Virus record (IMG/VR): IMGVR_UViG_3300042486_001633
Reading direction: 5' to 3' (one strand)
Length of the DNA stretch: 64,000 bases
Source of the DNA: an uncultured virus (IMG/VR IMGVR_UViG_3300042486_001633)
Taxonomy: Duplodnaviria > Heunggongvirae > Uroviricota > Caudoviricetes
Position numbers and translations under genes: made by a program. Shown in pieces: positions 1 through 45,849 of the stretch (the stretch's first letter is position 1; the number at the start of each line of letters is the position of its first letter). The notes beneath the pieces were generated by a model. The model did no database searches and had not been told where the DNA came from. It worked only from the letters and a program-made list of their open reading frames with translations.

Positions 1-8
1 CTAACTAA

Positions 9-101
9 ATATAACAAGGTATATGTGAAATACCTCATAAAGTTTCTACTAAATTTTAAAGTTCTGTGGTAAGGTACTTCACATATACCCAACCGTTATA
101 C
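9..101 (+). repeat. attC-like site 0
   Basis: ATATAAC 9-15; arms GGTATATGTGAAATACCT / AGGTACTTCACATATACC (1 mismatch); CAACC-GTTATAC 95-101. Confidence 0.85.
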
Positions 102-153
102 ACAATACTACATCATACGTTCTAATTAAGTTATGTGTAAAAACTTTTTAAAA

Positions 154-312
154 TTAATTACTCAAAGACAAACATTTTTGTAAAACTGATTTCATCAATT
201 TTAATGTTTCATCATCAAATAACGAACCTCTTGAATTAACTTTACTTTCATAATCTAATTTTATTAATTCTTTAATTTCCCTAATTAATTCAGTTCTTTC
301 TTGTTGTGTCAT
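154..312 (-). CDS. Cassette 1 ORF b, 52 aa hypothetical (MTQQERTELIREIKELIKLDY...)
   Basis: Read by hand, below ORF-track cutoff; ATG at 312, TAA at 154-156, directly downstream of 317..502. Confidence 0.65.
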   Translation of the reverse strand: MTQQERTELIREIKELIKLDYESKVNSRGSLFDDETLKLMKSVLQKCLSLSN

Positions 313-316
313 AATT

Positions 317-502
317 TTATTTTTTAAATTTTAATTCTTCTTCAATAATCATCACCATATCATCAAATGAAATTCCCCTTTCATCCGCTCTTTGTTGAAT
401 ATACTCTTCACTAAGATGAATATAATTCGCTTTTGGTTTATCATTTTTACTAATTTCATTTGATGCTTTTAGTAATTTTTCTATAATTTGTTTTTGTTCC
501 AT
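317..502 (-). CDS. Cassette 1 ORF a, hypothetical
   Basis: ORF track; lies between attC0 and attC1. Confidence 0.7.
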   Translation of the reverse strand: MEQKQIIEKLLKASNEISKNDKPKANYIHLSEEYIQQRADERGISFDDMVMIIEEELKFKK

Positions 503-565
503 ATTTTTTTAAAAAGTTTTTATTTGTATTTCAAATCAACACCCTACCTTATTAATCCGTAATGT

Positions 566-619
566 GTATAACAACAAATATATTGCATTAAAACGACAAT
601 ATATTTGCAACCGTTAGGC
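566..619 (+). repeat. attC-like site 1 (short, 54 bp)
   Basis: GTATAAC, arms CAAATATATTG / CAATATATTTG, CAACC-GTTAGGC. Confidence 0.85.
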
Positions 620-629
620 GTAATAAATT

Positions 630-779
630 TTACTGCCATTCGTCAAAGTTTTTATAATAGTTCTCCGCATCTTTCTTTGTCCATTTTATTTTGGTTGCTG
701 CATCAATGTCCTTTTTAATTTGTCTGTCATCTGCTATCATAAACAGTATAACTATTCCAAAAAATATTAGTAGTCCCAT
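630..779 (-). CDS. Cassette 2 ORF, 49 aa with N-terminal hydrophobic segment (MGLLIFFGIVILFMIADD...)
   Basis: Read by hand; fills the cassette between attC1 and attC2. Confidence 0.65.
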   Translation of the reverse strand: MGLLIFFGIVILFMIADDRQIKKDIDAATKIKWTKKDAENYYKNFDEWQ

Positions 780-798
780 AATCGTAAAATTTACATAC

Positions 799-928
799 GC
801 CTAACATTGCATAACCAAAAGCGGGGCGTATATCCGTCATTCAGCTATTGTACTACCAATTTACTTTGTGCCGTTGGTTAGGGTGGTTGCACTTAATCCC
901 CGCCTTCGGTTATACCTGTCCGTTATAA
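799..928 (+). repeat. attC-like site 2
   Basis: GCCTAAC, arms ATAACCAAAAGCGGGG / CCCCGCCTTCGGTTAT, GTTATAA at 922. Confidence 0.85.
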
Positions 929-950
929 GTAATAAAACAAAAATTATGGA

Positions 951-1145
951 TTATTTAATAAACCCACTATGTTTTAAAAACTCACGCATTGCATCAACAA
1001 CTTCTTTGTCGTTTTCAATTAATTTACCTTTCACAAAAATATCACCATTCTCTTTTAATAAGATTATTGCTTCATTTTCACTTTTACCTAAATCAAATCT
1101 AATTGTGTTAGGTTCTAATTCACTTTTTAATTCTAAATTTTCCAT
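951..1145 (-). CDS. Cassette 3 ORF, hypothetical
   Basis: ORF track; fills cassette. Confidence 0.75.
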   Translation of the reverse strand: MENLELKSELEPNTIRFDLGKSENEAIILLKENGDIFVKGKLIENDKEVVDAMREFLKHSGFIK

Positions 1146-1185
1146 AATATTACTTTTTTATTTGTATAATTTTTGTTTTACATAC

Positions 1186-1239
1186 TTATAACAAAGTGTA
1201 AAAAACATTAAAACGATTTTTTACACTCCACCATTAGTG
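1186..1239 (+). repeat. attC-like site 3 (short; core GTT changed to ATT)
   Basis: TTATAAC, arms AGTGTAAAAAA / TTTTTTACACT, same CATTAAAACGA loop as site 1, ends CCACC-ATTAGTG. Confidence 0.8.
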
Positions 1240-1246
1240 GCAAGTG

Positions 1247-1459
1247 CTACATCACCACTTCTTCACGACATTTTGTTCCATCAAAATAACATAAGTTTTT
1301 TTGTGCTTCTTCTAATGTAGAAAAACTATCTGTTGTTGAAACATCATTATTCATCCAAGCATCTACCCACCACCAAAAAAACAAGAAGTGTCGTTGTTGT
1401 ATTGTAAATTCTACTCTACCATCGGGCATTGTTCTTTCAATTATTCTTACTTTTTTCAT
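1247..1459 (-). CDS. Cassette 4 ORF, hypothetical
   Basis: ORF track; fills cassette. Confidence 0.75.
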   Translation of the reverse strand: MKKVRIIERTMPDGRVEFTIQQRHFLFFWWWVDAWMNNDVSTTDSFSTLEEAQKNLCYFDGTKCREEVVM

Positions 1460-1483
1460 TTTCGTTTAATTTACCGCACCAGC

Positions 1484-1586
1484 CACTAACAGCGGTTTGG
1501 TGCTATTATTTTGCCTATAAATTTTATCTAAGGATTGAAATGTCTGCAAGGCAAAATAACAGACACCAAGCCGCATAACGTTAGGC
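1484..1586 (+). repeat. attC-like site 4
   Basis: CACTAAC, arms GCGGTTTGGTG..TTATTTTGCCT / AGGCAAAATAA..CACCAAGCCGC, GTTAGGC at 1580. Confidence 0.85.
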
Positions 1587-1591
1587 ACAAT

Positions 1592-1864
1592 TTAAGACTG
1601 TCCAAATCTACCTTTGTCTATATAAATCAACAAAGTGTCTTGATATGTTCCCATATTAGGTCTTACCATTACTGATAGTCCTCGTTCAATTATTATATTT
1701 ACTATCTCACTTTGCTTTTCAACAGAATAATCAAATTCAGAGTTATGTTCAAAGTAAGGTATTAAATCCCGTTCTTTCCAATAAGCTACTACTATTTTTT
1801 TCATAAGAATAAAAACTGTGCCTAACAACGTATATAAGAGATACGCCAATAAGCGGTTATACAT
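1592..1864 (-). CDS. Cassette 5 ORF, hypothetical (alternative start ATG 1804)
   Basis: ORF track; upstream ATG lies inside the attC5 loop. Confidence 0.7.
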   Translation of the reverse strand: MYNRLLAYLLYTLLGTVFILMKKIVVAYWKERDLIPYFEHNSEFDYSVEKQSEIVNIIIERGLSVMVRPNMGTYQDTLLIYIDKGRFGQS

Positions 1865-1913
1865 TTATTTAAGTTTATCGGTGGCGTACCTCTCATATAC
1901 GCAACCGTTATAG
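1820..1913 (+). repeat. attC-like site 5
   Basis: GCCTAAC, arms CGTATATAAGAGATACGCCA / TGGCGTACCTCTCATATACG, CAACC-GTTATAG. Confidence 0.85.
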
Positions 1914-1919
1914 CCAATG

Positions 1920-2189
1920 CTACTTATTGTACCAAACAACGTGTGTTGCATCTAATTGGGGTGTCGAAAAAACTTCATCACTACTTTTAAGTCCATCCTT
2001 CACCCAATATCCGTTACCATCAAAATTACAGAAGCAACCGTCTTTTACTGCTTGTTTCCATTCTTCAACCGTGTAAATATCATCATCCCAATCTTGGTCA
2101 AGTTTTTTCGTGTATCTATCCGCACTACTGCTAACAGCAAGTATATTCAATTGCTCATTGTCTTGCTTATTTTTATCTTTGTTTTCCAT
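1920..2189 (-). CDS. Cassette 6 ORF, hypothetical; starts inside attC6 loop
   Basis: ORF track. Confidence 0.75.
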   Translation of the reverse strand: MENKDKNKQDNEQLNILAVSSSADRYTKKLDQDWDDDIYTVEEWKQAVKDGCFCNFDGNGYWVKDGLKSSDEVFSTPQLDATHVVWYNK

Positions 2190-2260
2190 ATCTACTTTTA
2201 TTTGTTAATTAGTATTTGTTTTTCAAAATCGCAACTAAATATACTTGCGAAACGTTATAT
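2129..2260 (+). repeat. attC-like site 6
   Basis: TGCTAAC, arms GCAAGTATATT..TTGC / GCAA..AATATACTTGC, GAAAC-GTTATAT. Confidence 0.85.
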
Positions 2261-2261
2261 G

Positions 2262-2456
2262 CTATGCTGTGAAACCTGACTTAGAAAGTGCATCATCAAC
2301 CATGTCAAAAACCTTTTCAGGAATGTGTGCGGTCATGTGTTTTCTAACTTCAATCAAAGTCTTAGCAAGTAATTCAATCGTTTCTTTTTGTGCTTTATCA
2401 CGAACAAAATCGTATTCTGCACTTTCTACTGTTTTTGGGAAAGTTCCTCTTGTCAT
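2262..2456 (-). CDS. Cassette 7 ORF, hypothetical
   Basis: ORF track; fills cassette. Confidence 0.75.
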   Translation of the reverse strand: MTRGTFPKTVESAEYDFVRDKAQKETIELLAKTLIEVRKHMTAHIPEKVFDMVDDALSKSGFTA

Positions 2457-2482
2457 TTTAATTTAGATTTGAGAAGCACAGC

Positions 2483-2614
2483 ATATAACAACACATTGCC
2501 AAAAGTGGCGGTTTAGTGCTAATATCAACTGTTGTGCTTCGGTTTAACATTCGTTTTTATATCAATTTTAGTGCTTCGATTTCGCCACCTTCGGCAATCT
2601 GCAAAACGTTATAA
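2483..2614 (+). repeat. attC-like site 7
   Basis: ATATAAC, arms ATTGCCAAAAGTGGCG / CGCCACCTTCGGCAAT, CAAAAC-GTTATAA. Confidence 0.85.
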
Positions 2615-2625
2615 GCAAATAAAAA

Positions 2626-2865
2626 TTACTCACTTTTCGTTTCATCAACAACTTTTTGGTTTCTAATTTCGCCTTCCAACTCCATCATTTTCATAAAGCA
2701 ATCTCTTAAATGCGAGTGCATCTTACCTAACTCAAATCCGTAAACAACATCATCTTTTTCGGAGTTGCATAAATCTCTAACTAAATCCGCATTTAGTTCA
2801 AACATTCTTTTGTAATGCTCAATTTGTTCTAATTGTTCTTGTGTAATCAAATATTTTCGTTCCAT
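2626..2865 (-). CDS. Cassette 8 ORF, hypothetical
   Basis: ORF track; fills cassette. Confidence 0.75.
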   Translation of the reverse strand: MERKYLITQEQLEQIEHYKRMFELNADLVRDLCNSEKDDVVYGFELGKMHSHLRDCFMKMMELEGEIRNQKVVDETKSE

Positions 2866-2885
2866 AATCCGTAATTTTTATCAGC

Positions 2886-2954
2886 TTATAACAGCGTATA
2901 TACAAGATACGCCTACAAGCATTTGTTTATAATTTAAAGTTTCGTTAAGGCGTA
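2886..2954 (+). repeat. attC-like site 8, truncated right arm
   Basis: Left arm resembles site 5 (TAAC-AGCGTATATACAAGATACGCC) but the right arm stops after AGGCGTA. Confidence 0.7.
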
Positions 2955-3269
2955 ATGCTGACGAAGGAACTCGACAATGGTTTTGCTATCGACTTGTTTA
3001 GCACCAGCCTTTATTGCCTTATCAATCATTGCACCTTTTACATCGTAATGTGGCTGATTTTTATTTCGCTTGTTTTGAAACCAGCATTTGTTTAACCCAA
3101 TACTTTGAGCAAATGAATGAAGATTTGGTATAGTATCAGCCACTAAATGACACCAACCATTTTTCGGAAAATCAATAAGCACTACACCTAACACTGCATA
3201 CCCGACAATGGGGGCTGACGTGCTATTTTCGGCATTTGTGCTATTATCAAAGTTCATTTCTAAATTCAT
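2934..3269 (-). CDS. Cassette 9 ORF, DUF4031-like protein; starts inside attC9 loop
   Basis: WCHLVAD..LHSFA..IGL..WFQ..PHYDV pattern typical of DUF4031. Confidence 0.75.
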   Translation of the reverse strand: MNLEMNFDNSTNAENSTSAPIVGYAVLGVVLIDFPKNGWCHLVADTIPNLHSFAQSIGLNKCWFQNKRNKNQPHYDVKGAMIDKAIKAGAKQVDSKTIVEFLRQHYALTKL

Positions 3270-3316
3270 CGGTTTTGCTTTTAATTCCCCACTGCGGGTA
3301 TGCTTTTACGTTATAG
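3186..3316 (+). repeat. attC-like site 9
   Basis: ACCTAAC, arms GCATACCCG.CAATGGGG / CCCCACTGCGGGTATGC, GTTATAG at 3310. Confidence 0.85.
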
Positions 3317-3337
3317 GTAATAAAATTTACTGCCATC

Positions 3338-3658
3338 CTACTTCCAATCAGCATTTGGTTGATTAAATTCGGGGCGTAAATCGGGGCTTGAATGTGCCAC
3401 ATTACCTTCATATTCTTTTTTCAATTCGTCTTGTTCTTCCGCAAGCACTCTGTAATTATACATTGTTGATGGTCTGCCTTCAATTCCCACCATCGTATAA
3501 TTAAAGTGGTCTTTAGGTAAGTGCTTGCTAAATTCTACCTTGTTAATAGTTGCCAATCCTCCTTCAAAATCATCTTCTCCACGATACACATAGTAAGATG
3601 ATGGCACATAAATTTTGTCCCCGATTTTCGGTTCTTTGATTTTAGTTTTGTCTTTCAT
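3338..3658 (-). CDS. Cassette 10 ORF, hypothetical
   Basis: ORF track; flanked by a perfect 21 bp inverted repeat (3310-3330 / 3664-3684). Confidence 0.8.
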   Translation of the reverse strand: MKDKTKIKEPKIGDKIYVPSSYYVYRGEDDFEGGLATINKVEFSKHLPKDHFNYTMVGIEGRPSTMYNYRVLAEEQDELKKEYEGNVAHSSPDLRPEFNQPNADWK

Positions 3659-3677
3659 AATCCGTAAATTTTATTAC

Positions 3678-3769
3678 CTATAACAAGGGCTATACAAAAC
3701 CCCACATCAACAGCAGTGGTTAATAATTAAGTTCATCTATGTGGGGCTTCGCATAGCCATGAGTTATAA
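3678..3769 (+). repeat. attC-like site 10 (last in array)
   Basis: CTATAAC, arms GGCTATACAAAACCCCACAT / ATGTGGGGCTTCGCATAGCC, GTTATAA at 3763. Confidence 0.8.
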
Positions 3770-3814
3770 CCAGATTTTCTAAAGATATTATACTAAAATT
3801 TTAATAAATAATAA

Positions 3815-3899
3815 AGACCGGCGGACTTAAATGTCCCACATTAGGACCGGTTATAGTTTAGGCTATAAGAAAACGTCGACCTCGCTAGTCGACGTTTTC
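3815..3899 (+). ncRNA. Candidate small structured RNA
   Basis: Late-type motif ATAAATAA at 3804-3811 followed by three consecutive stem-loops and no ORF. Confidence 0.35.
3869..3899. terminator. Probable bidirectional intrinsic terminator
   Basis: GAAAACGTCGAC-ctcgcta-GTCGACGTTTTC perfect 12 bp stem just after the stop of 3905..4642. Confidence 0.75.
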
Positions 3900-3904
3900 G
3901 CTTC

Positions 3905-4642
3905 CTATCGACCTGCGTTAAGTTTGTGTTTTACTGCAAGCTCTCGAATAACTGCAGTTTTTGCATAGCATACCGTTCTCAAGATGAAGCTAGTAATCTT
4001 AGCATATCTACGATCGTCTCTGGATCCCCAGGAAGAATAGCATTCTATTTCATTAAGACAATTTTGTATGGCTGACTTATTTCCCTCTATTGCACTCCTG
4101 TATTCTCGGCTGAACTTCTGAAGACAATACTTGACCATTCGAAAATCTGGTACAACTGATGTGTAGCCATGGCCGTCTTCAGTCCTCTTCCAGTATTCCA
4201 ACTTATAACTAAATCTTCGAGGCTGATACTGTACTTCGACTGGATACGGGTGTCCTTTTTCTTTTGGGACAAAGACTATTTTCCACTTACCGATCGTAAT
4301 CTTTTTGGTTCGGGCTTTAATTGCAGCTTTACCTTCTTGATAATAATGGTTCCAAGAATTAAGCGCATACCTCATGCCGCTCCTACTACATTTCTCAATA
4401 ATAGTGTATGCAACAGCCCACTTAATTTGTTCAGGTTTATTACGTATGAACATATCACCGTCCTCAATCCATACTGCATCGAGATTATTGGCCTCACAAT
4501 ATTCATAAGTACACTGATAGCCTTCCTTGAAGGAAGGTGTGCCGTTTGGGTCGGACACATGTTCACCTAGATCTTCATATCGATCTTTATGGGTCACGAC
4601 CAGTTCGTGACTACAACATGGGCAAAATAGGCTAGTTTTCAT
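3905..4642 (-). CDS. Hypothetical protein with N-terminal Cys cluster
   Basis: 245 aa ORF, CPCC and CxxxxC; own promoter motif upstream. Confidence 0.8.
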   Translation of the reverse strand: MKTSLFCPCCSHELVVTHKDRYEDLGEHVSDPNGTPSFKEGYQCTYEYCEANNLDAVWIEDGDMFIRNKPEQIKWAVAYTIIEKCSRSGMRYALNSWNHYYQEGKAAIKARTKKITIGKWKIVFVPKEKGHPYPVEVQYQPRRFSYKLEYWKRTEDGHGYTSVVPDFRMVKYCLQKFSREYRSAIEGNKSAIQNCLNEIECYSSWGSRDDRRYAKITSFILRTVCYAKTAVIRELAVKHKLNAGR

Positions 4643-6971: not shown

Positions 6972-7244
6972 TTACACAAAAAATGTTGATAACCATAAAC
7001 CTAAGACTCCGCCAATTGCTCCGCCAATTGCATAGCCTGCCCATTGATGTAGCGAGTCTTCGCTCTTTGCAATCTTACGAACTACAAAAAAGTTGAACGA
7101 TGCAATAATAAAATCAGTAATAACTGTACCGGGATAATTTACCCATGCAACAAACCGATAGTTAATAACGAGTAACAAATACAAAAGTAATTGTATTGCA
7201 AAAAAGAGGAAAAATTCCTTGAGTTTAATTTTATTGACCTTCAT
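6972..7244 (-). CDS. Small membrane protein
   Basis: Three hydrophobic segments, YAIGGAIG. Confidence 0.75.
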   Translation of the reverse strand: MKVNKIKLKEFFLFFAIQLLLYLLLVINYRFVAWVNYPGTVITDFIIASFNFFVVRKIAKSEDSLHQWAGYAIGGAIGGVLGLWLSTFFV

Positions 7245-7680
7245 ATTGTAACCTTTCTTCGGTGTTTAATAAACCTTTGCCGTATTTTTGAATTCTATTG
7301 TTATATCTTTCCTTTACATAATCGTGTATCCGTAAAGAATTGCCCTCATCGTCAATGCGTACAAATTTAATGTTGGTGTGCACAACGACATCCTGTTTAC
7401 CAGTATACACATTATGCTTGCGAACTTCAAGATAAACAGTAACTGAGGTAGTGCCAAATTCAAAAATATTACCATACACCTTAAGAATATTTCCTATTTT
7501 TACTGGGTGTTTGAAAATAAGTTCGTCAATTTTTAAAGTTACGACGCGTTGTGTATCGCAAATTTGGGCAACATAAGCAGCAGCTGCATCGTCGATAAGT
7601 GATAAGATAGTTCCGCCGAACATATTATCATGTACTCCAATATCGCTCTTCTTACAAATATAGGTTGTGATTAATTCCAT
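7231..7680 (-). CDS. Acyl-CoA thioesterase (hotdog fold)
   Basis: NMFGG.ILSLID.AA, F..PV.IG, G.TS. Confidence 0.85.
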   Translation of the reverse strand: MELITTYICKKSDIGVHDNMFGGTILSLIDDAAAAYVAQICDTQRVVTLKIDELIFKHPVKIGNILKVYGNIFEFGTTSVTVYLEVRKHNVYTGKQDVVVHTNIKFVRIDDEGNSLRIHDYVKERYNNRIQKYGKGLLNTEERLQYEGQ

Positions 7681-10883: not shown

Positions 10884-11324
10884 ATGAAAAACTACAAAAA
10901 CCTTAGACGAATTTACGAGGACGATATGCAAGCAATTGCATCAACTGATGTTCAAGAACTTGGAATGCAACCTGAAATGACACCTGATCAAGAAATGCCA
11001 ATTGATTATCCAGCACAACAACTTGCACTTCCAGCAGAAGGTCAAACCTCTGCTGCTCCAGATCCAATGACAATGACGGTTGGAGATTTCTTAGGTAAAT
11101 GTAAGGAAGTTGACCCATTAATATGTATGGGAATCCAATCATTTATTGATAAAAATATGCATGTATTTAGTGCACCATCTCAACCGGCAGCAATGCCAGG
11201 AATGGAAGCAGAACCGGATTTAACTTTCTCAAATGCAGTTGCACCAGAAGGACAAATGGCTCCTGCTCCAGTACCAGCATTTTCGTTAGACCAATCACCT
11301 GAAACTTTAAATTTTCCAGGCTAA
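10884..11324 (+). CDS. Hypothetical late protein
   Basis: ORF track, late motif upstream. Confidence 0.75.
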   Translation: MKNYKNLRRIYEDDMQAIASTDVQELGMQPEMTPDQEMPIDYPAQQLALPAEGQTSAAPDPMTMTVGDFLGKCKEVDPLICMGIQSFIDKNMHVFSAPSQPAAMPGMEAEPDLTFSNAVAPEGQMAPAPVPAFSLDQSPETLNFPG

Positions 11325-11327
11325 TCA

Positions 11328-11609
11328 ATGGTAAGAAACTTTAATACTTATTTAGTTGAAGTAATGGGCGCAGACTCAATGGAGAGGGATCCAGCAGATA
11401 TTATACTTAGTCCAGATACTAAGAGGGCTAACGCAATGTCATTTTATGCTGGTTCATCTGGTACAATTCCAACGCATTGGAATAATTCTCCATTCTTGAC
11501 TGGCGGTAGACTAACTAGTGCATTTGGATTAAATCCAAGTAAAGCAAAGAAGAAGAGCGTGCTCTCTTACCACGAGTTCATAAAGACAACTAAAGGATTT
11601 TCAAAATAA
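11328..11609 (+). CDS. Hypothetical late protein
   Basis: ORF track. Confidence 0.75.
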   Translation: MVRNFNTYLVEVMGADSMERDPADIILSPDTKRANAMSFYAGSSGTIPTHWNNSPFLTGGRLTSAFGLNPSKAKKKSVLSYHEFIKTTKGFSK

Positions 11610-11628
11610 ATAATAAAAAGAAATTACA

Positions 11629-12003
11629 ATGGGATCACATATTGCAAGCTTTAAGAAATTCATGAAATCTGAAGAAAAGAAAGCAGAAGAGATTGGAGCT
11701 GCACCAATGGTCGACGAACAAGCAGCACCAGCTGCTCCAGGTGCAGGAGATAATATTGGCGGAACCTCTACTCCAGCGGCAACTCCTCCAGCTGCACCAG
11801 TAGTTGCAAGCGTTGAGGCAAACCCAGCAGTAATAGCAGCTCGTCAAGCAGCAGCTGCAGCAGTTGCAAATCGAGATAAAGTAGTTTCAGCAAAACAAGC
11901 AGAACTTGATAAACTCAAAACTGATCAAGACACTTTAGTAAATACTGCAAACACAAACTTAAATAAAGCTTTACAGGATGCTGGAAAAGCAACCGCCGCA
12001 TAA
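11629..12003 (+). CDS. Ala/Pro-rich hypothetical late protein
   Basis: ORF track, late motif upstream. Confidence 0.75.
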   Translation: MGSHIASFKKFMKSEEKKAEEIGAAPMVDEQAAPAAPGAGDNIGGTSTPAATPPAAPVVASVEANPAVIAARQAAAAAVANRDKVVSAKQAELDKLKTDQDTLVNTANTNLNKALQDAGKATAA

Positions 12004-12449
12004 TGGAAAAATTAGTAAAAACATATCAAGAGTTCATAAACGAAGCTACAAAAGAAGTAGTTTATCCTACTAATTTTAAAGGCCAAGTACAGAGTGCTCT
12101 AGCTGGAGTTTATACTTCGGTAATGGCAATCGCTCAGGAACTAGCAAATGAAAAGGCTGCTCGTAATCCTGCAAGATATGATGGTACAATTGAAGAAGTG
12201 GATATTACTAGAGCAATGAACCTTATTTTTCATAGCGATTGGAAAAAGAAATTAAAACAACAAGCATTAGGCCAGATGGTATACAAATCAATGGAACGTG
12301 CTGGTAAACAGGATAATGTAGTGGCGAAGAAAAATCAAAGAGCAATGGGTCGTATGTTAGGAGACAAAGACTTTAATCTTAATATTGATAAATCAAGCAC
12401 AAGATTTAGTGACGAACGTCAAGGAACAGGACCTGGATCAAATCAATAA
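12003..12449 (+). CDS. Putative internal head protein
   Basis: N terminus KTYQEFINE, nearly identical to T4 capsid-targeting sequence MKTYQEFIAE. Confidence 0.65.
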   Translation: MEKLVKTYQEFINEATKEVVYPTNFKGQVQSALAGVYTSVMAIAQELANEKAARNPARYDGTIEEVDITRAMNLIFHSDWKKKLKQQALGQMVYKSMERAGKQDNVVAKKNQRAMGRMLGDKDFNLNIDKSSTRFSDERQGTGPGSNQ

Positions 12450-25481: not shown

Positions 25482-27410
25482 ATGGCAGGTATAAACAATT
25501 TAAAGGAAGTTTACGAAAAAAGAGGTGAAGATTTTTTAAAGAATCTTCTTAATAGTTATGTCATCATCAATGAAAAAGTAGATGGTACCTTTTTTGGAGT
25601 AAAGAAGAGCAAGAACGATCAATTCAGATATTTTAAAAAATCTGGAGAAATTAGTTATGTTGATCGAGTATTGATGAAATACTATAATTCAGCGATTGCA
25701 TATTTTGAACACATTTCTCCTGAAAAAAGACAGAGGATTCCGGCTAATTTCTATTTTGGATTTGAGTATTTTACAAACGGCGATTCCCTAAATCATAGAT
25801 ATGACCGGCTTCCAAAAAACAATTTAGTCCTTTCTTATATCCATAAATTGGATGATTCTGGAGCAATTGTTTCAACTATTCAAAATAAAGAGCAACTTGA
25901 CAAATGGGCAGATTATCTTGGAGTAGAGAGACCGCCGATTATTTTCGAAGGTAATTTAACGGATGAACAAAAAACTGCAATCCTTGAATTTGTATATGCG
26001 CCATCTGAGGAGTTATTTAGTAAATTTAAAACTCGGTCATTCACTAAATATATTTTATCAATATTAAATGATGAGCAGTCTTCTTCATTTTTAAAAGACA
26101 CTGCAAACGGCAGCATTGATACTATTGTTTTTAGATTTTATGACGAAAATGCAGAGGATCCAGAAGCAGCAGTGTTTCTTGCAAAAATGGTCGATCCTAT
26201 TTTTAATCATGAAAAAACAGTTAAACCAAAAGAAAATAAATCGCAAGATTATATTTGGCTTATTGTAATTGACGTGATGAACCATTTCGAAATGTATGAC
26301 GTTGCTGATTTGAAGAAAATGGCAAGTGTCGGAAATACATTTGACGAAAAATACGTTGCGCTAATAAATACAATGTTCAAGGATTTTATTAAAGAATATT
26401 CTGGAAAATATGAAGGCCTTCGCCTTGAGATTCCAGACTATTTAAAGAGGCCTGAATTTGAATTGGATAAAACTCTAGTTAATGATCCAGCCGTAATTAA
26501 GTTATTAAAGGACGACACTTATTCTGAGATCTATAAAATACTTTTAAATTTCTTTAGAAGAAATAGAAAGAACTCTTCATCTGGCTTTTTTACTCCTGAG
26601 TTATTGACTCAACTTAATTTGATCGTTAATAAGATTAGGAACATTATTATGGGTGATGAAGTATATGAAAGCTTATTTCCTAGCTTTAGTGAATTTGTTG
26701 GAACCAATGGTGACGATTCAATGTTAAGTGAAAAAGAAGTTGCCGAAGGTAAGCATAAAAAACCAGTGCAAACTGAAGTTAACTTATTGATTGGTAATTT
26801 TCAACCAATTACAATGGGTCATATTAAAGCGGCTCAAAAATTAAAAGAAAAGAACGGGTGCAAAACAGTATTAGTTGCAATCAAACCTGAAAATCCAACT
26901 CAAAAATCTCCGTTCTCAGTAAGAGAAACAAGAGTAATGCTTGAAAAGGTTCAGCAAGAATATCCTGATCTAATTACTGATATTTGCTTAATTAAGTCTG
27001 GCCAAATTGAAGAAATATTAGACGCGTTGCAGCCGAAGTATAAACCATTATTATGGGGAACATCTGAACGTCGCCTTAAAGATTATGTTCTACAACTAGA
27101 TTATATTAAAAAGAAAAGTATTCCTTTACGATTAGACAAAGGATTTAAACTTGTTGAATTACCTATTTTTGTAAAATCCGAAGACGTAGTCAATTCAATT
27201 GTAAAATCTGATTTTGCAGAATTTAAGAAACTCGTACCTACATCAATTGCCTCTGAATTTTTTAACCTACAAAAAGAATTAGAAAAGAGCGTAAACGAAG
27301 AAGTTAAACCAGCTTCTAATTTTAGCGCAATTTTCGAAAATCAAGATATTGTAGCCGATGTAGTTGATTCTGATGATACAGAAGAAGATATTACGAAGGA
27401 AGATATTTAA
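25482..27410 (+). CDS. Ligase-like nucleotidyltransferase domain fused to cytidylyltransferase-like domain
   Basis: N-terminal EKVDG, FEY, PPIIFEG; C-terminal GNFQPITMGH and SPFS. Confidence 0.7.
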   Translation: MAGINNLKEVYEKRGEDFLKNLLNSYVIINEKVDGTFFGVKKSKNDQFRYFKKSGEISYVDRVLMKYYNSAIAYFEHISPEKRQRIPANFYFGFEYFTNGDSLNHRYDRLPKNNLVLSYIHKLDDSGAIVSTIQNKEQLDKWADYLGVERPPIIFEGNLTDEQKTAILEFVYAPSEELFSKFKTRSFTKYILSILNDEQSSSFLKDTANGSIDTIVFRFYDENAEDPEAAVFLAKMVDPIFNHEKTVKPKENKSQDYIWLIVIDVMNHFEMYDVADLKKMASVGNTFDEKYVALINTMFKDFIKEYSGKYEGLRLEIPDYLKRPEFELDKTLVNDPAVIKLLKDDTYSEIYKILLNFFRRNRKNSSSGFFTPELLTQLNLIVNKIRNIIMGDEVYESLFPSFSEFVGTNGDDSMLSEKEVAEGKHKKPVQTEVNLLIGNFQPITMGHIKAAQKLKEKNGCKTVLVAIKPENPTQKSPFSVRETRVMLEKVQQEYPDLITDICLIKSGQIEEILDALQPKYKPLLWGTSERRLKDYVLQLDYIKKKSIPLRLDKGFKLVELPIFVKSEDVVNSIVKSDFAEFKKLVPTSIASEFFNLQKELEKSVNEEVKPASNFSAIFENQDIVADVVDSDDTEEDITKEDI

Positions 27411-37893: not shown

Positions 37894-38179
37894 CAGTAAT
37901 CTCTAGGTTATTTTCCAATTTATATTTTTCCCAGTCTTCTGCATTCATTAGATCTGGAAATCTTTCTCCCTCATTACAAGAAACGTTGACATACATTTTT
38001 CCTGGTGTAGAACAGCCACAATATTTACAGTAGCCCTGTACCATGCAATCATCTTTACAGATTTCAGAACGATATAGCACTTGCTCACGCTCATGTTTTG
38101 GAAGAAGATGCATTTTATCGCCTAGCATTTTTAGGTTGCCTTCAATAAATTGAAAGACCTTTTTTGGTGTAATTTTCAT
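37877..38179 (-). CDS. Hypothetical Cys-rich protein
   Basis: C..C...C..CGC pattern. Confidence 0.75.
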   Translation of the reverse strand: MKITPKKVFQFIEGNLKMLGDKMHLLPKHEREQVLYRSEICKDDCMVQGYCKYCGCSTPGKMYVNVSCNEGERFPDLMNAEDWEKYKLENNLEITGDIFH

Positions 38180-39066
38180 TTTCCTCTAAGTGTTTTTCTT
38201 TTTGCAAGCTCAGATGCGATTACTTCACGTGGTCCATATCCGCCACGAGCAGATTCAACATCACGGATACTCTTTACTAATTTAATGAGTCCTTGCGGTT
38301 CAACTGATGCCATCTGATCGCTACCCCAAAGAGAGCGGTCTAGCGTAATATGTCGTTCTACCCAAGTTGCACCTAATATTGTAGCAGCAACGGTAGTCGT
38401 AAGACCAAATTCATGGCCAGAATAACCGACTTCAAATTTCTTTTCAAAATCATTACCTCTATTAATATGTGATAAGTATGTAATATAGTCTAGGTTTAAT
38501 TCTTCAATTGGCGATGGATATGTTGAATTAGTATGGAACACAACATCAGGTCGACCTGCTGCAATGGCAAGATCAATTTCTTCTTGCGTGCTCATTCCAG
38601 TAGAAATTAGCAAAAAGTCAGAATTCTCTCTAGCATACTCTACTAAAGTTAGGTCATTAATTAAAGCTGAAGGTATTTTAGTCATAACTCCCCATTTACC
38701 ATTAGGTAGCATTGTTTCAAAACCTCGCATAAAATCAACTGCACCCTTATCCCAAACTGAAGCAAACCACTTCATTCCTTTAGAATCACAATACTTGTCA
38801 ATTTCTGTGTATGCTTCCTTTTCAAATTCAATATCAAGTTTATACTGAAAGTATGTGGTTTCCTCTTTTCTCCAAGGAACGTTCTTTGCTTTTAATCTCT
38901 CAGCTTGAGGTACACATAGCTCTGGAGTTCTTTTTTGAAACTTAACATAGTCGACGCCAGCGATAGACGCAACATCGATAAGTTTCATAGTATGGGATAA
39001 AAACGTTTCGATGGTTGTGCCATATGCATAATTTATTCCAATTTCAGCAATAATTTTAGTTTTCAT
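38176..39066 (-). CDS. neuB: N-acylneuraminate(-9-phosphate) synthase family
   Basis: IIAEIGIN, VKFQKR, KIPSA, STGMS, STYP, GYSGHE, ERHITLDR, GSD..AS. Confidence 0.92.
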   Translation of the reverse strand: MKTKIIAEIGINYAYGTTIETFLSHTMKLIDVASIAGVDYVKFQKRTPELCVPQAERLKAKNVPWRKEETTYFQYKLDIEFEKEAYTEIDKYCDSKGMKWFASVWDKGAVDFMRGFETMLPNGKWGVMTKIPSALINDLTLVEYARENSDFLLISTGMSTQEEIDLAIAAGRPDVVFHTNSTYPSPIEELNLDYITYLSHINRGNDFEKKFEVGYSGHEFGLTTTVAATILGATWVERHITLDRSLWGSDQMASVEPQGLIKLVKSIRDVESARGGYGPREVIASELAKRKTLRGK

Positions 39067-44436: not shown

Positions 44437-45849
44437 TTAATATTTATTTTTTTGAAAAACTTCAGGCAATATTTGTTCAAATGTTTGACTTATATAAAAA
44501 TTTTCAAATTTATAATTGTGTGCCGGTGCAATTTCGAGAGAGTCATTTGATCTAAGAACAGAATTCTCACGATTTGCATATCCATTAAAACCAAATAATG
44601 TTAATTTATAATTACTTAAATTTAATTCTTTAATTAAAAGAATTGAGGCTAAGCCAGATGTTGGAATAATCGCAGATTTAATAGCATCTAATATAGTCTT
44701 ACTATTTGGATAATTATAGTTTATGATACGCTTCGATGGATAACTTGAAAGTATTTCATCTACTGCATTTTTCCATGGAGATATAGGTTTGGATAAAATA
44801 ATTAAATAATCAGAATCAAGATCTAAATTAAATCGGGCTTCTCTAAATATACAATGAATATTAGTTTTGGTTCCAGTATGTTTAGGTGAGGTTACATAAC
44901 CATTAAATCTGATAATTATGTCATGTGAATCAATGAGTTCTCCATATTGATAATTAAGAAGTTCTGCTGAATTTGCAACAACTGCTATTTTTTTACCATT
45001 TAGATATTTAAAAAGAGTTTCTCTACCTATAAGTTGAGTTGAGTTAGTAATTTTAGCTAAAGGTTTAGGTGGTTTTGCAACGAACGGTTCAGGCGGTTTT
45101 ACAGCTAACTTAGCGGTTACGCCCTTTTTTTGTTCACGTACTGCAGAATTAAAATTTAAAGGTTTACTCAATTTATGATTAAGTAAATGATTTTGATATA
45201 GCCATACCTGATTGATTTTTCCATATTTAGGATCACTATATGCTACTGTATCATAATCAATAAAACTTGCATTTGCTAATGTTCGAGCAAGTTGCGTATA
45301 CTTTGGATCTGGTACAGTCGATGCTAAAACTCCAAGAGTATCGGTATATTCAACGCTATTAGTTTGAAGTAAACTATTTTTTAGACAGTTTAAATAAGAA
45401 TCAGTTGGTGTTTTATTTAGTGAATCTGTATATGCAGTGTTTGGCGAATCTACATAAACAATTGAATAATTGCCAGCGACCATTATTTTATTTGGTTGTA
45501 AAATAGAAGTTACATCCTTCATAAAAAGACAGCGATTACTAAAAAATAATAATTTACTTGGAGCAAAAGAAAAAATAAAACACCTAAGTTGGTCTTGAAC
45601 ATGGGTTGGTGTTATTTTTAATCTTGATGAAATTGCGACTGCTTGGGAAAATAGTACTATTTCAATATTTTGATAAATTGCTTTTAATTTTTCAAAGTTT
45701 AGACTTGAAAGAGGAAAGTTTGGATGTACAACTAGTGTTATTTTTCCGTTGAACCAGGTGTTGGTTTCAAGGAAACTGTTCACGCTTACTCTAGTGAAGT
45801 GAAACTGTGCATCGCTGGCAATTGTTACTGCATTTATCTTATTTTCCAT
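44437..45849 (-). CDS. Two-domain protein with C-terminal GT29 sialyltransferase-like domain
   Basis: Sialylmotif L-like AVVANS...G..IDSHD.IIRFN...G.KT, S-like PTSG, LFGF, VS-like HNYKFE. Confidence 0.8.
   Translation of the reverse strand: MENKINAVTIASDAQFHFTRVSVNSFLETNTWFNGKITLVVHPNFPLSSLNFEKLKAIYQNIEIVLFSQAVAISSRLKITPTHVQDQLRCFIFSFAPSKLLFFSNRCLFMKDVTSILQPNKIMVAGNYSIVYVDSPNTAYTDSLNKTPTDSYLNCLKNSLLQTNSVEYTDTLGVLASTVPDPKYTQLARTLANASFIDYDTVAYSDPKYGKINQVWLYQNHLLNHKLSKPLNFNSAVREQKKGVTAKLAVKPPEPFVAKPPKPLAKITNSTQLIGRETLFKYLNGKKIAVVANSAELLNYQYGELIDSHDIIIRFNGYVTSPKHTGTKTNIHCIFREARFNLDLDSDYLIILSKPISPWKNAVDEILSSYPSKRIINYNYPNSKTILDAIKSAIIPTSGLASILLIKELNLSNYKLTLFGFNGYANRENSVLRSNDSLEIAPAHNYKFENFYISQTFEQILPEVFQKNKY

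What the first reader, a model, noticed from the sequence alone, without database searches (positions are those of the whole stretch)
95..3684. Cassette ends pair far beyond the 7 bp core and share a common frame around unrelated ORFs
Seen: end complementarity reaches 21/21 bp in cassette 10 (3310-3330 vs 3664-3684), 20/22 in cassette 8, and 10 bp + bubble + 15 bp in cassette 3. Cassette 1 has an additional internal 16 bp inverted repeat (about 138-153 vs 507-522). Cassettes 2, 8 and 10 share the minus-strand leader AAAT(T)TAC(G)GATTATG directly before unrelated ATGs. Cassettes 2 and 10 share the opposite end TAATAAA.TTTACTGCCAT. Inference: ORFs were placed into a reusable hairpin scaffold, a possible clue to how cassettes are made. 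Alternatively each ORF's mRNA is closed by a processing stem.
Basis: partly seen in the sequence, partly recalled or inferred. Interest (0 to 1): 0.75.

Follow-up and report, generated by a model that had tools for sequence, protein, structure and literature searches.

The report
Clamp stems on phage integron-like cassettes
Each small gene in this phage's row of swappable genes is bracketed by matching inverted ends that are the two halves of its own folded recombination site, much longer than in bacterial integrons, and the same bracket is reused around unrelated genes.

Summary
Window 1-3770 is an array of 10 one-gene cassettes and 11 attC-like hairpins at the edge of a large T4-like phage. 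Cognate cassette ends pair 14-27 bp in 9 of 10 cassettes, far above non-cognate and shuffled controls. An identical metagenome contig (L257) continues the array to about 27 cassettes. It ends at a conserved attI-like junction and a 266-aa Xer-like tyrosine recombinase. So this is a complete integron-like element, not a stray cluster.

The same hairpin family forms cassette arrays in Flavobacteriia chromosomes. There the genes face the other way and the ends pair only 7-11 bp.

In 80 phage cassettes from public viral contigs:
- the stem spans a median of 24 nt;
- it carries a near-fixed G.T wobble 11-12 nt from its base, with or without a T.T mismatch or a bulge;
- it folds better on the coding strand.

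Nine frame types are each shared by 2-5 unrelated ORFs, and the frame often supplies the stop codon.

My reading: the ends are an outward "clamp" extension of each cassette's own recombination hairpin, contiguous only in the excised circle. An RNA role is not excluded, and how ORFs get into shared frames is open. This scan noted the same system earlier on other DNA. I found no description in print.

The parts
9..101 (-). attC-like hairpin 0 (medium family, about 92 nt), from ..TAAC core to GTTA.. core
   Evidence: Folds at -15.9 kcal/mol on the minus strand vs -14.0 on plus. Hit by covariance model R1 at E 7e-7.
95..572 (-). Cassette 1 body with two ORFs (317-502 and 154-312, minus strand). 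Outer clamp 95-108/559-572 (13/14). Inner stem 138-153/507-522 (16/16).
   Evidence: The closing stem is predicted with P about 0.9.
566..619 (-). attC-like hairpin 1 (short family, 54 nt, loop TCGTTTTAATG on the minus strand)
   Evidence: R1 gives 68.8 bits, E 2.6e-15. Same loop as Polaribacter phage P12002L_attC1.
613..805 (-). Cassette 2 body, ORF 630-779. Ends pair as 10 bp + bubble + 9 bp.
799..928 (-). attC-like hairpin 2 (long family, 130 nt)
   Evidence: -16.3 on minus vs -10.2 on plus.
922..1192 (-). Cassette 3 body, ORF 951-1145 (phrog_16927). Ends pair as 10 bp + bubble + 15 bp.
   Evidence: The same frame is found in IMG/VR loci L006, L033, L096 and L116.
1186..1239 (-). attC-like hairpin 3 (short family). 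Its 5' core on the folding strand reads TAAT instead of TAAC.
   Evidence: R1 gives 64.8 bits.
1233..1490 (-). Cassette 4 body, ORF 1247-1459. Ends pair 15 nt with a T.T and a G.T.
   Evidence: The leader plus hairpin 4 is 74% identical to a site beside a DNA methyltransferase gene in Flavobacterium siphophages.
1484..1586 (-). attC-like hairpin 4 (103 nt)
   Evidence: -23.3 on minus vs -21.3 on plus.
1580..1826 (-). Cassette 5 body, ORF 1592-1804. Ends pair 14 nt with a G.T at position 11.
1820..1913 (-). attC-like hairpin 5 (medium family)
   Evidence: R1 at E 5.5e-6.: -16.4 on minus vs -12.9 on plus.
1907..2135 (-). Cassette 6 body, ORF 1920-2189 (phrog_14149). The longest frame starts inside hairpin 6. 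Ends are not cognate (core 4/7): the exception.
2129..2260 (-). attC-like hairpin 6 (132 nt)
   Evidence: (I16).
2254..2489 (-). Cassette 7 body, ORF 2262-2456. Ends pair 15 nt (93%).
   Evidence: (I22).
2483..2614 (-). attC-like hairpin 7 (long family, 132 nt)
   Evidence: -16.7 on minus vs -9.5 on plus.
2608..2892 (-). Cassette 8 body, ORF 2626-2865. Ends pair 20/22 with T.T and G.T at positions 10-11.
   Evidence: (I4).
2886..2950 (-). attC-like hairpin 8, truncated. One arm resembles hairpin 5 and the partner arm is missing.
   Evidence: Read. Weak fold (-6.9).
2944..3192 (-). Cassette 9 body, DUF4031 ORF (2934-3269 as the longest frame, which starts inside hairpin 9). Weak end pairing.
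3186..3316 (-). attC-like hairpin 9 (long family, 131 nt)
3310..3684 (-). Cassette 10 body, ORF 3338-3658. Ends pair 21/21.
   Evidence: (I3).
3678..3769 (-). attC-like hairpin 10, the terminal site of the array, abutting the phage backbone at GTTATAA (3763-3769)
   Evidence: (I13). A contig 100% identical in the flanking gene diverges from the window inside this hairpin's loop.

Best explanation
The region is part of a phage-borne integron-like gene-cassette system. Each cassette, read in the sense of its gene, is: hairpin, GTTAnnn core, 5' arm and leader, ORF, 3' arm, nnnTAA. Exchange takes place at TAA|C, just 5' of the hairpin on the folding strand. This is the classical G|TT point seen from the other strand.

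The two 'cassette ends' are therefore the two halves of that cassette's own R-box. They lie next to each other, flanking the hairpin, only when the cassette is an excised circle.

In this phage lineage the R-box is extended outward by a clamp:
- a basic 13-15 bp stem with a conserved G.T wobble (with or without a T.T mismatch or a bulged T/G) 10-12 nt from the base;
- often 8-15 further A/T-rich pairs.

Inferred function: the clamp stabilises folding of the recombinogenic strand in very AT-rich DNA, marks which strand folds (G.T on one strand is A.C on the other), and pre-aligns the two sites that flank a cassette.

The 'common frame' exists because 3' arm + hairpin + 5' arm/leader is one contiguous conserved module of about 130-200 nt in the circle, and this module travels with many unrelated ORFs.

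Shown: anatomy, statistics, linkage, and the recombinase and attI-like end in the same genome. Inferred: that the 266-aa recombinase acts here, the exact cleavage point, and what the clamp does.
For: Anatomy in the window:
- There are 11 hairpins and 10 cassettes with cognate cores.
- 10 of 11 hairpins fold better on the minus strand, with one tie.

The hairpin is a real structured family:
- In 89 aligned sites, 12 of 12 stem pairs show compensatory changes and 93.8% of cells are paired.
- The covariation score is 0.566 vs 0.180 in shuffles, reached in 0 of 500.

The same family bounds cassettes in Flavobacteriia chromosomes:
- L158 reads recombinase remnant, then ORF + hairpin three times, then backbone.
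- L136 has 5 sites.

Same genome as the window:
- L257 is 100% identical to window 1-4001 and continues the array.
- About 27 cassettes were parsed. The first few were mis-parsed by the script.
- The array ends at nnnTAAC|TATTATATAT, followed by a 266-aa tyrosine recombinase (PF00589, E 1.5e-34).

The recombinase sits beside arrays elsewhere:
- Homologues lie just downstream of arrays, on the same strand, in L254, L004, L016, L020, L026, L051, L060 and L064.
- 9 of 10 loci share the attI-like junction.

Hairpin-first linkage:
- Sites sharing the downstream 5' frame but not the upstream frame share the hairpin stem in 16 of 26 pairs.
- Sites sharing only the upstream frame do so in 0 of 6 pairs. 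The background is 183 of 3916.

The clamp is general in phages:
- 19 of 66 testable sites have a partner above the 99th percentile of the control.
- In 80 non-redundant cassettes the median stem span is 24 nt. There are 48 G.T (43 at positions 11-12), 53 T.T and 29 bulged G/T on the 5' arm.
- Wobble on the sense strand is 59 vs 9 on the antisense strand.

Phage versus bacteria:
- Bacterial cassettes of the same family score only 0-4 beyond the core (9 intervals).
- The hairpin loop keeps the same strand-specific sequence in bacteria although transcription there runs the other way. This argues that at least the hairpin is read as DNA. The G.T spot appears in only some of the few bacterial cassettes read by eye, so it adds little.

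Folding: closing stems are predicted in 9 of 10 window cassettes with DNA and with RNA parameters.
Against: - No recombination was observed.
- Site architecture differs from canonical attC. The extra unpaired bases (GGTTG vs TT) lie on the 5' arm of the folding strand, not the 3' arm (the canonical layout is recalled and read from the bottom strands).
- The recombinase lacks the IntI-specific insertion.
- A site of this hairpin family (P12002L_attC1) was the one of six phage sites that IntI1 did not recombine (Qi et al. 2023, section 3.4 and Table S3).
- The long clamp is seen in phages, where the folding strand is also the mRNA strand, and not in bacteria, where it is not. That correlation fits an RNA role at least as well.
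- The harvest of 80 cassettes was selected for end score of at least 15, so stem lengths are biased upward. In the unselected test, 47 of 66 sites had no partner above the control's 99th percentile within 1500 nt.
- Cassette 6 has no cognate ends.
- Shared frames around unrelated ORFs are not explained by exchange at a single point.
Confidence: 0.58

Rival explanations
1. RNA-level closing stem. The array is transcribed as one long message in the sense of the ORFs. Each ORF's 5' and 3' flanks pair in the RNA, either to be cut (for example by RNase III) into stable single-gene messages or to shield the ends. The recombination site accounts only for the first 7-10 bp.
For: - The strand that folds is the mRNA-sense strand in 58 of 60 phage sites.
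- Non-Watson-Crick positions are G.U-compatible on that strand, 59 vs 9.
- Stems end close to the ORF. The ATG lies a median 39.5 nt from the base and the stop lies inside or beside the 3' arm (median 17 nt).
- There are no per-cassette sigma-70-like promoters (21 found vs 19.5 expected), no intrinsic terminators (0 found), and no positioned TAnnTTTG boxes (the motif is recalled). Read-through transcripts carrying both arms are therefore plausible.
- Long clamps are absent from bacterial cassettes, whose transcripts are of the other strand.
- RNA folding predicts the stems in 9 of 10 cassettes.
Against: - No RNA data. No listed run holding the stretch is on record as RNA.
- Most stems in the full array are only 13-15 bp, short for an RNase III site (recalled requirement of about 20 bp).
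- The hairpin loop is conserved on the same DNA strand in bacteria, where it is antisense to the genes. The conserved part is therefore read as DNA.
- An ORF-less unit keeps its 19-bp stem.
- No Rfam family matches.
Confidence: 0.2
2. Reusable scaffold. Hairpin plus paired arms is a pre-existing empty chassis, and ORFs are loaded between its arms. Shared frames would then record how cassettes are born.
For: - 9 frame types are each shared by 2-5 unrelated ORFs.
- The frame runs up to the ATG and supplies the last codons and the stop.
- There is an ORF-less unit of 75 nt with a 19-bp stem.
- In cassette 1, the outer frame carries the shared TTACGGATTA leader without its ATG, followed by an inner 16-bp stem around two ORFs.
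- Cassette genesis is stated to be largely unknown (Loot et al. 2017, passage seen).
Against: - No loading mechanism is visible. The boundaries are defined by selection-prone features (start, stop).
- The ORF-less unit may be a deletion product.
- Frames could spread by homologous exchange within 20-48-nt arms in recombination-proficient T4-like phages.
- Only one empty unit was found among 21 short candidates.
Confidence: 0.15
3. PeSL-like regulatory cassettes. The inter-ORF modules are promoter/terminator units that shuffle ORFs by homologous recombination, as in hyperplastic regions of T4-type phages, with no site-specific recombinase involved.
For: - The host element is a T4-like phage (gp20 portal, gp23 capsid).
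- Conserved inter-ORF modules flank unrelated small ORFs.
- Two hybrids have a break inside a hairpin loop: L060 and L003 vs the window.
Against: - There is no excess of sigma-70-like promoters and no terminator-like site.
- Variable core bases match between the two ends of a cassette, not across a hairpin (44% paired across the hairpin). That is the mark of exchange at a fixed point.
- A recombinase and an attI-like end sit at the array end.
- The same sites bound cassettes in bacterial chromosomes.
Confidence: 0.05
4. Chance complementarity in AT-rich sequence.
For: The region is 30-35% G+C, and the arms are A/T runs.
Against: - Cognate ends score far above non-cognate ends and shuffles.
- 0 of 1000 and 1 of 1000 shuffles reach the observed repeats.
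- The same is seen in many independent viral contigs.
Confidence: 0.01

Closest known systems
Classical integrons (IntI, attI, attC cassettes), above all sedentary chromosomal integrons and the group with the integrase co-oriented with the cassettes
   Same: - A tyrosine recombinase gene next to an attI-like junction and a row of one-gene cassettes.
- Imperfect hairpin sites bounded by ..AAC and GTT.. cores.
- Each cassette's first core bases match the inverse core at its other end, the mark of exchange at G|TT.
- The folding strand is defined and carries the non-Watson-Crick features.
- Site families are conserved within a lineage around unrelated genes.
   Different: - The genes lie on the folding (bottom) strand, so each hairpin precedes its gene.
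- The recombinase is 266-268 aa, Xer-like, and lacks the IntI-specific insertion.
- The extra unpaired bases lie on the other arm.
- Hairpin loops are sequence-conserved.
- The R-box is prolonged to 13-27 bp with a fixed G.T wobble.
- The host is a virulent-type large phage.
Integron parts and CALINs reported in phage genomes (Qi et al. 2023, PMC9892861)
   Same: - Clusters of attC sites in virulent phages, including a Flavobacteriia phage.
- Their P12002L_attC1 has the same loop and layout as window hairpins 1 and 3 (Table S3).
   Different: - They report 2-4 predicted sites per virulent phage and no integrase there.
- That site did not recombine with IntI1.
- Here the array has about 27 cassettes with its own recombinase.
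- In the parts I read (abstract, section 3.4, passages, supplement part 1), clamps, inverted gene polarity and shared frames are not described.
PeSL promoter/stem-loop cassettes of T4-type phages (Arbiol et al. 2010; Comeau et al. 2014)
   Same: Small conserved inter-ORF modules flank unrelated accessory ORFs in variable regions of T4-like phages and are credited with modular shuffling and mini-circles.
   Different: - PeSLs are direct repeats made of a sigma-70 promoter plus a terminator, and they act through homologous recombination.
- Here there is no promoter or terminator signal.
- Here the ends are inverted and cassette-specific, and a recombinase is present.
- I saw only the abstract of the 2014 paper and the search listing of the 2010 paper.
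Xer/dif-type recombinases (archaeal XerA, XerC/D)
   Same: Best sequence matches of the recombinase are NF040815 XerA (184 bits) and PDB 4a8e XerA-like (E 1.4e-37).
   Different: - All matches are below the curated cut-offs.
- The gene sits at the end of a cassette array beside an attI-like junction, not at a dif site.
Long-range processing stems that enclose a gene product in RNA (rRNA operon stems, T7 early mRNA RNase III sites; recalled)
   Same: 5' and 3' flanks of a unit pair into a stem with an internal irregularity.
   Different: - No RNA evidence here.
- Most stems are shorter than RNase III substrates.
- The conserved parts are shared with DNA sites that are transcribed in the other sense in bacteria.

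Membership tests
Integron (attC side) | Imperfect hairpin site bounded by an inverse core ending in AAC and a core starting with GTT | tested here: met
   11 sites in the window. In 89 aligned family members, AAC and GTT are invariant and 12 of 12 stem pairs covary.
Integron (attC side) | Cassette boundary inside the core, so that the bases after GTT at a cassette's start match the inverse core at its own end, not the neighbour across the hairpin | tested here: met
   Cores are cognate 7/7 in 7 of 10 cassettes. The variable core bases across a hairpin pair in only 44% of cells (helix 1).
Integron (attC side) | Extrahelical bases / unpaired spacer on the 3' arm of the recombinogenic bottom strand (layout recalled; bottom strands of control sites seen) | tested here: not met
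   On the folding strand the spacer is 5 nt (GGTTG) on the 5' side and 1-2 nt (TT) on the 3' side. Irregular bases (G.T, T.T, bulged T/G) lie outside the R-box instead.
Integron (attC side) | One site per cassette, travelling with that cassette | tested here: met
   The hairpin stem is shared in 16 of 26 pairs that share only the downstream frame, and in 0 of 6 pairs that share only the upstream frame. The array ends hairpin-less at the recombinase side and with a hairpin at the backbone side (3678-3769).
Integron (platform) | Integron integrase with the IntI-specific insertion in the catalytic domain | tested here: not met
   TIGR02249 scores 151-154 bits against a cut-off of 265, in two stretches, the better one ending at profile position 180-205 of 315. 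PDB IntI4 2a3v aligns only over residues 21-180. The recombinase is 266-270 aa.
Integron (platform) | Recombinase gene next to an attI-type site at one end of the array | tested here: met
   L257 (identical to the window over 4001 nt) reads last cassette, TAAC|TATTATATAT, then the recombinase start 46 nt later. The same junction is found in 9 of 10 loci.
Integron (platform) | Promoterless genes on the top strand, read from a promoter at the integrase end | tested here: not met
   Genes lie on the folding-strand sense in 58 of 60 phage sites and point towards the recombinase gene. In bacterial genome records, 19 of 32 sites have the classical polarity, 11 have the phage polarity (mostly small MAG contigs, which may be phage) and 2 are unclear.
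Integron (platform) | Recombinase-catalysed excision and insertion of cassettes | not testable with these tools
IntI1 failed on a site of this family in Qi et al. 2023.
CALIN (attC cluster lacking an integrase) | No integrase gene with the cluster | tested here: not met
   The window alone has none among the 33 largest ORFs scanned. The identical contig L257 has one about 6 kb beyond the window's left edge.
PeSL regulatory cassettes | Sigma-70-type early promoter plus terminator stem-loop between ORFs | tested here: not met
   21 promoter-like sites vs 19.5 expected, and 0 terminator-like sites.
RNA processing stem | Transcript ends or cleavage at the stem | not testable with these tools
   No RNA holder is listed. 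No Rfam match.

The most novel reading that the evidence does not exclude
The clamp-plus-frame module is a cassette chassis. A short Xer-like recombinase that lacks the IntI insertion reads a long R-box stem whose fixed G.T wobble, rather than extrahelical bases, tells it which strand to use. New cassettes arise when ORFs are loaded between the arms of empty chassis units, and the chassis supplies the start context and the stop codon. That would be the first sequence-level trace of how integron-type cassettes are born, and it would make the process testable in a phage system.
Probability: 0.15. Interest if true: 0.88.

Novelty: new variant of a known kind. Interest (0 to 1): 0.72.

Why it matters
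Integrons are the textbook gene-capture machines of bacteria, and how their cassettes are made is an acknowledged open question (Loot et al. 2017, passage seen).

Here a large lytic-type phage of probable Bacteroidota hosts carries a complete relative of that machine with three departures: genes turned round, a simpler recombinase, and recombination hairpins with a long outer clamp.

The clamp, its fixed wobble and the frames reused around unrelated genes give concrete, mutable features. They allow tests of strand choice, cassette excision and cassette origin.

They also explain why standard integron finders, which ask for the IntI insertion and a canonical attC, would miss a system present in more than a hundred public viral contigs.

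For phage biology, it is a candidate mechanism for the fast turnover of small accessory genes.

Tried and rejected
- Whole genome of the window: not held.
- Exact-match searches for window stretches in IMG/VR found nothing. The metagenome scan then found L257-L259.
- RNA evidence: no listed run holding the stretch is on record as RNA. The stretch is held by 23 of 24 listed lake or freshwater metagenome runs at 0.77-0.99 of the sampled words, 2 of them possibly the source. I take this only as DNA presence.
So no test was made for circle junctions, deletions or RNA ends.
- A generic hairpin finder of my own was too permissive (134 and 136 hits in the 60-kb non-array part of the window) and was dropped in favour of covariance model R1.
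- R1 finds only the short family and part of the medium family. Hairpins 2, 4, 6, 7, 9 and 10 are not hit at E up to 1. With filters off it finds no further site in the window.
- Flank comparison of shared cassette bodies gave only same-contig artefacts.
- tRNA-like strings in one cassette: ARAGORN finds no tRNA.
- Per-cassette Bacteroidetes-type promoters: TAnnTTTG occurs 35 times vs 22.3 expected in L257, but on both strands and without fixed position (consensus recalled).
- IS200/IS605-type or REP/RAYT elements were considered because of the strand-specific hairpins. They were set aside because the sites are single-copy in 5 of 5 bacterial genomes checked and the enzyme beside the arrays is a tyrosine recombinase. 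I ran no search for HUH transposases.
- In 5 large viral records, PF00589 hits were found in 3. None was found in a 324-kb record called complete.
- Literature searches turned up no description of clamp stems, inverted phage cassettes or this recombinase-array pairing. They cover open-access papers and bioRxiv only, and mostly at listing level.

Full report
**What the window is**

The 64-kb window belongs to a large T4-like phage.
- Its largest ORFs include a T4-type portal (gp20), the major capsid protein gp23, a prohead protease, PhoH, family-B DNA polymerase, topoisomerase II subunits and helicases.
- The nearest phage records by capsid protein are an uncultured 462-kb phage (37% identity) and the Lak Prevotella megaphages.
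- A 34-kb IMG/VR contig identical in the flanking gene is rated 13% complete. From that I infer a genome of roughly 260 kb.
- G+C is 30-37%.
- The finding covers the left 3.8 kb.

**The observation**

Positions 1-3770 hold 11 hairpin sites and 10 short units.
- Each hairpin site runs from a core ending in AAC to a core starting with GTT. Lengths are 54, about 92-103, or about 131 nt.
- Each of the 10 units between them holds one small ORF (two in unit 1). All ORFs are on the minus strand, like the neighbouring phage genes.

I aligned the two ends of every unit from the G of GTT inward.
- The 7-nt cores match 7/7 in 7 of 10 units.
- Scores for pairing beyond the core are 5, 10, 15, 4, 5, 2, 10, 11, 4, 14.
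- The 90 non-cognate end pairs average 2.09 (max 12). The 2000 shuffles average 1.24 (max 13).
- The high non-cognate values come from the shared frame of units 2, 3, 8 and 10.
- Unit 6 has no cognate ends.

Perfect repeats of 21 and 16 nt are reached in 0 and 1 of 1000 shuffles.

**The hairpins are a structured family**

Ten of 11 hairpins fold more stably on the minus strand, and one ties. The difference arises because mismatches on plus are G.T pairs on minus.

The short type (sites 1 and 3) has the minus-strand loop TCGTTTTAATG.
- 100 of 126 viral matches have at least 8 of 10 stem pairs.
- It also hits 120 stretches of the genome collection. About half of those look like chance: 52 of 121 matches have the stem.
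- The true genome hits are overwhelmingly in Bacteroidota.

In an alignment of 89 sites:
- AAC, GTT and the loop are invariant;
- all 12 stem pairs show compensatory changes;
- 93.8% of cells pair;
- the covariation score is 0.566 against 0.180 in shuffles (0 of 500 reach it).

The variable core bases on the two sides of one hairpin pair in only 44% of cells. They belong to different cassettes.

**Link to integrons**

In Flavivirga (L158) the same hairpins sit in a classical layout.
- A frameshifted C-terminal remnant of a tyrosine recombinase is followed by a hairpin-less junction.
- Then comes ORF + hairpin three times, then ordinary chromosome.
- Algibacter (L136) has five such sites.

Flanking genes in 11 chromosomal loci are ordinary or accessory bacterial genes.

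The Polaribacter phage site P12002L_attC1, called an attC by HattCI in Qi et al. 2023, has the same loop and layout. It was the one of six phage sites that IntI1 did not recombine.

So the family is attC-like and already touched in print. It is not canonical:
- on the folding strand the spacer is GGTTG on the 5' side and TT on the 3' side;
- this is the reverse of the usual placement of unpaired bases (recalled, and visible in the control bottom strands).

**Polarity**

- In viral contigs the coding strand is the hairpin's folding strand at 58 of 60 sites.
- In genome records it is the opposite strand at 19 of 32 sites. Eleven are on the same strand, mostly small MAG contigs with phage-like leaders, and 2 are unclear.

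Two independent lines say that in phages the hairpin belongs to the gene downstream of it.
1. The window array ends with a hairpin against the phage backbone (3678-3769) and, at the other end, without one (below).
2. Among 89 phage sites, pairs that share only the downstream 5' frame share the hairpin stem in 16 of 26 cases. Pairs that share only the upstream 3' frame do so in 0 of 6. The background is 183 of 3916.

That places the exchange point at TAA|C, 5' of the hairpin on the folding strand. This is the classical G|TT seen from the other strand.

**The rest of the element**

A metagenome contig (L257) is 100% identical to window 1-4001 and runs 9.6 kb further in the locus, 13 kb in the contig.
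- The array continues. My parser returned 27 units and mis-parsed the first few. R1 finds 11 sites of the short and medium families there.
- The array stops at ..GTGTATAAC|TATTATATAT.
- Forty-six bases later a 266-aa tyrosine recombinase gene starts, on the strand of the cassette genes (PF00589, E 1.5e-34).
- It is 74% identical to a 268-aa protein that lies in the same position beside arrays in a 122-kb viral contig.

Homologues lie just downstream of the hairpins in L004, L016, L020, L026, L051, L060 and L064. Nine of 10 loci share the TAAC|TA(T/G)nnTATAT junction.

The protein is Xer-like.
- NF040815 scores 184 bits and TIGR02249 scores 151 bits. Both are below their cut-offs.
- The TIGR02249 match comes in two stretches, the better one ending at profile position 205.
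- The best PDB match is XerA 4a8e. IntI4 aligns only over residues 21-180.
- Smyshlyaev et al. 2021 note that the insertion is not fully conserved in their 'integron-like' subgroup (passage).

The window therefore holds the distal third of a complete integron-like element, not an orphan cluster.

**What the paired ends are**

With exchange at TAA|C, a cassette read in gene sense is: hairpin, GTTAnnn, 5' arm and leader, ORF, 3' arm, nnnTAA.
- Its two ends are the halves of its own R-box.
- They are contiguous, around the hairpin, only in the circle.
- This explains cognate cores, as in any integron. Loot et al. 2017 state that in arrays the variable bases of R' need not match R''.

What is unusual is the length.
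- In 9 intervals between consecutive sites in bacterial arrays of the same family, pairing beyond the core scores 0-4.
- In phages, 19 of 66 testable sites have a downstream partner above the 99th percentile of a shuffled-leader control.
- A harvest of cassettes with end score of at least 15 gave 80 non-redundant units with a median stem span of 24 nt. That set is selected, so it overstates the average.
- In the full L257 array most stems are 13-15 bp and a minority are 20-27 bp.

**A fixed irregularity**

Counts in the 80 cassettes:

| Feature | Count |
|---|---|
| T.T oppositions | 53 |
| G.T with G on the 5' arm | 48 (43 at positions 11-12 from the base) |
| Bulged G on the 5' arm | 19 |
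| Bulged T on the 5' arm | 10 |
| Wobble possible on the sense strand | 59 |
| Wobble possible on the antisense strand | 9 |

- By eye, about 22 of the roughly 23 well-parsed L257 units show G against A at position 11 in the alignments.
- Some bacterial cassettes show the same GCTGT/ATTGC pattern next to the core (read by eye).
- One strand can close this pair and the other cannot. I therefore read it as a strand marker or a recognition point. This is inference.

**Shared frames**

Of 3655 pairs among 86 ORF-bearing cassettes, 28 have both frames at least 80% identical over 20 nt beyond the core, and 27 of these have ORFs without a blastp match at 1e-3.
- One of the 27 is an artefact (one cassette listed with two spans).
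- L011 and L028 carry the same cassette.
- What remains is 9 frame types, each shared by 2-5 unrelated ORFs. One type includes window cassette 10 and L046.

The frames run up to the ATG. On the other side they include the last codons and the stop, so unrelated proteins end in ..SKQK.
- The median distance from the GTT to the ATG is 39.5 nt.
- The median distance from the stop codon to the cassette end is 17 nt.

One 75-nt unit has a 19-bp stem and no ORF (L025).

Cassette 1 carries the common TTACGGATTA leader without its ATG. An inner 16-bp stem around two ORFs follows.

In the circle, 3' arm + hairpin + 5' arm/leader is one contiguous module. Its conservation around different genes parallels the lineage-specific attC sites of chromosomal integrons, but reaches further out. 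Exchange at one point does not explain how different ORFs came to sit in the same frame.

**DNA or RNA?**

For DNA:
- the arms are neighbours only in the circle;
- the hairpin loop is conserved on the same DNA strand in bacteria, where transcription is opposite (the wobble spot recurs in only some bacterial cassettes);
- an ORF-less unit keeps its stem;
- most stems are short for RNase III.

For RNA:
- the folding strand is the message strand in phages;
- long clamps are missing where it is not;
- stems hug the ORF;
- there are no per-cassette promoters or terminators, so read-through RNA would contain both arms.

Folding predicts the closing stem in 9 of 10 cassettes with either parameter set, so it does not discriminate.

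I put the DNA reading at about 0.58 and the RNA reading at about 0.2. They are not exclusive.

**Comparison and novelty**

- The system works like an integron and shares its site logic, but fails three membership features: the IntI insertion, the placement of unpaired bases, and gene polarity.
- It is not a PeSL system and not a CALIN (a recombinase is present).
- Qi et al. 2023 reported small attC clusters in virulent phages, including one site of this family.
- My searches found no account of the clamp, the wobble, the shared frames or the recombinase pairing. They cover open-access papers and bioRxiv only, mostly at listing level.
- Earlier notes of this scan describe the same system, including 'extended clamp stems', on other genomes. 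I reached the same reading from my own calls before seeing them. The added points here are the bacterial/phage contrast in stem length, the fixed G.T position, the frame statistics, the hairpin-downstream linkage, and the recovery of the recombinase end for this very array.

Noticed in passing
L257 10029-10876 (contig identical to window 1-4001, continuing beyond the window's left edge): The array ends at an attI-like junction TAAC|TATTATATAT, followed by a 266-aa Xer-like tyrosine recombinase gene. Two paralogous HAD_SAK_2 genes follow it (10895-11464, 11469-12035).
   Followed up: yes
window 2129-2260 and 3186-3316: The longest frames of cassettes 6 and 9 start inside the upstream hairpin. 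The family matches (phrog_14149, DUF4031) begin only at residues 33 and 37, so the true starts are uncertain.
   Followed up: partly
window 2886-2950: Hairpin 8 is truncated. One arm is like that of hairpin 5, the partner arm is missing, and the next core is GTTAAGG.
   Followed up: no
window 3678-3769 vs L003 10870-10952: An IMG/VR contig identical in the neighbouring gene follows the window into hairpin 10, diverges in the middle of its loop and ends there. This is either a population variant or an assembly switch in a repeated loop motif.
   Followed up: partly
window 3869-3897: An 11-bp perfect palindrome followed by a T-rich run lies just after gene 3905-4642 (minus strand), between the backbone and the array. 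It is terminator-like by eye, but the consensus scan did not list it.
   Followed up: no
window 25482-27410, 38176-39066, 44437-45849: The phage carries a cytidylyltransferase-like domain protein, a NeuB homologue and a GT29 sialyltransferase-like protein. Together these suggest nonulosonic-acid sugar synthesis genes.
   Followed up: no
window 47171-48145, 55101-56162, 63163-63945: The phage carries a DnaJ homologue, an IMPDH/GMP-reductase family protein and an Fpg/Nei-type DNA glycosylase.
   Followed up: no
L025 2930-3004: A 75-nt unit sits between a hairpin-side GTTA and a TAAC+hairpin, with a 19-bp closing stem and no ORF. It is a candidate empty cassette.
   Followed up: partly
L158 1689-4726 and L252: Several separate 65-aa stretches resemble the C-terminus of the recombinase (35-38% identity) upstream of the Flavivirga array, besides the frameshifted remnant at 7020-7297.
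   Followed up: no
L001 1860-2660 (Flavobacterium phage vB_FspS_snusmum6-1): A DNA methyltransferase gene of a 39-kb siphophage is a single cassette of this kind. A hairpin like window hairpin 4 lies upstream, and the ends pair 9 bp + T.T/G.T + 5 bp.
   Followed up: partly
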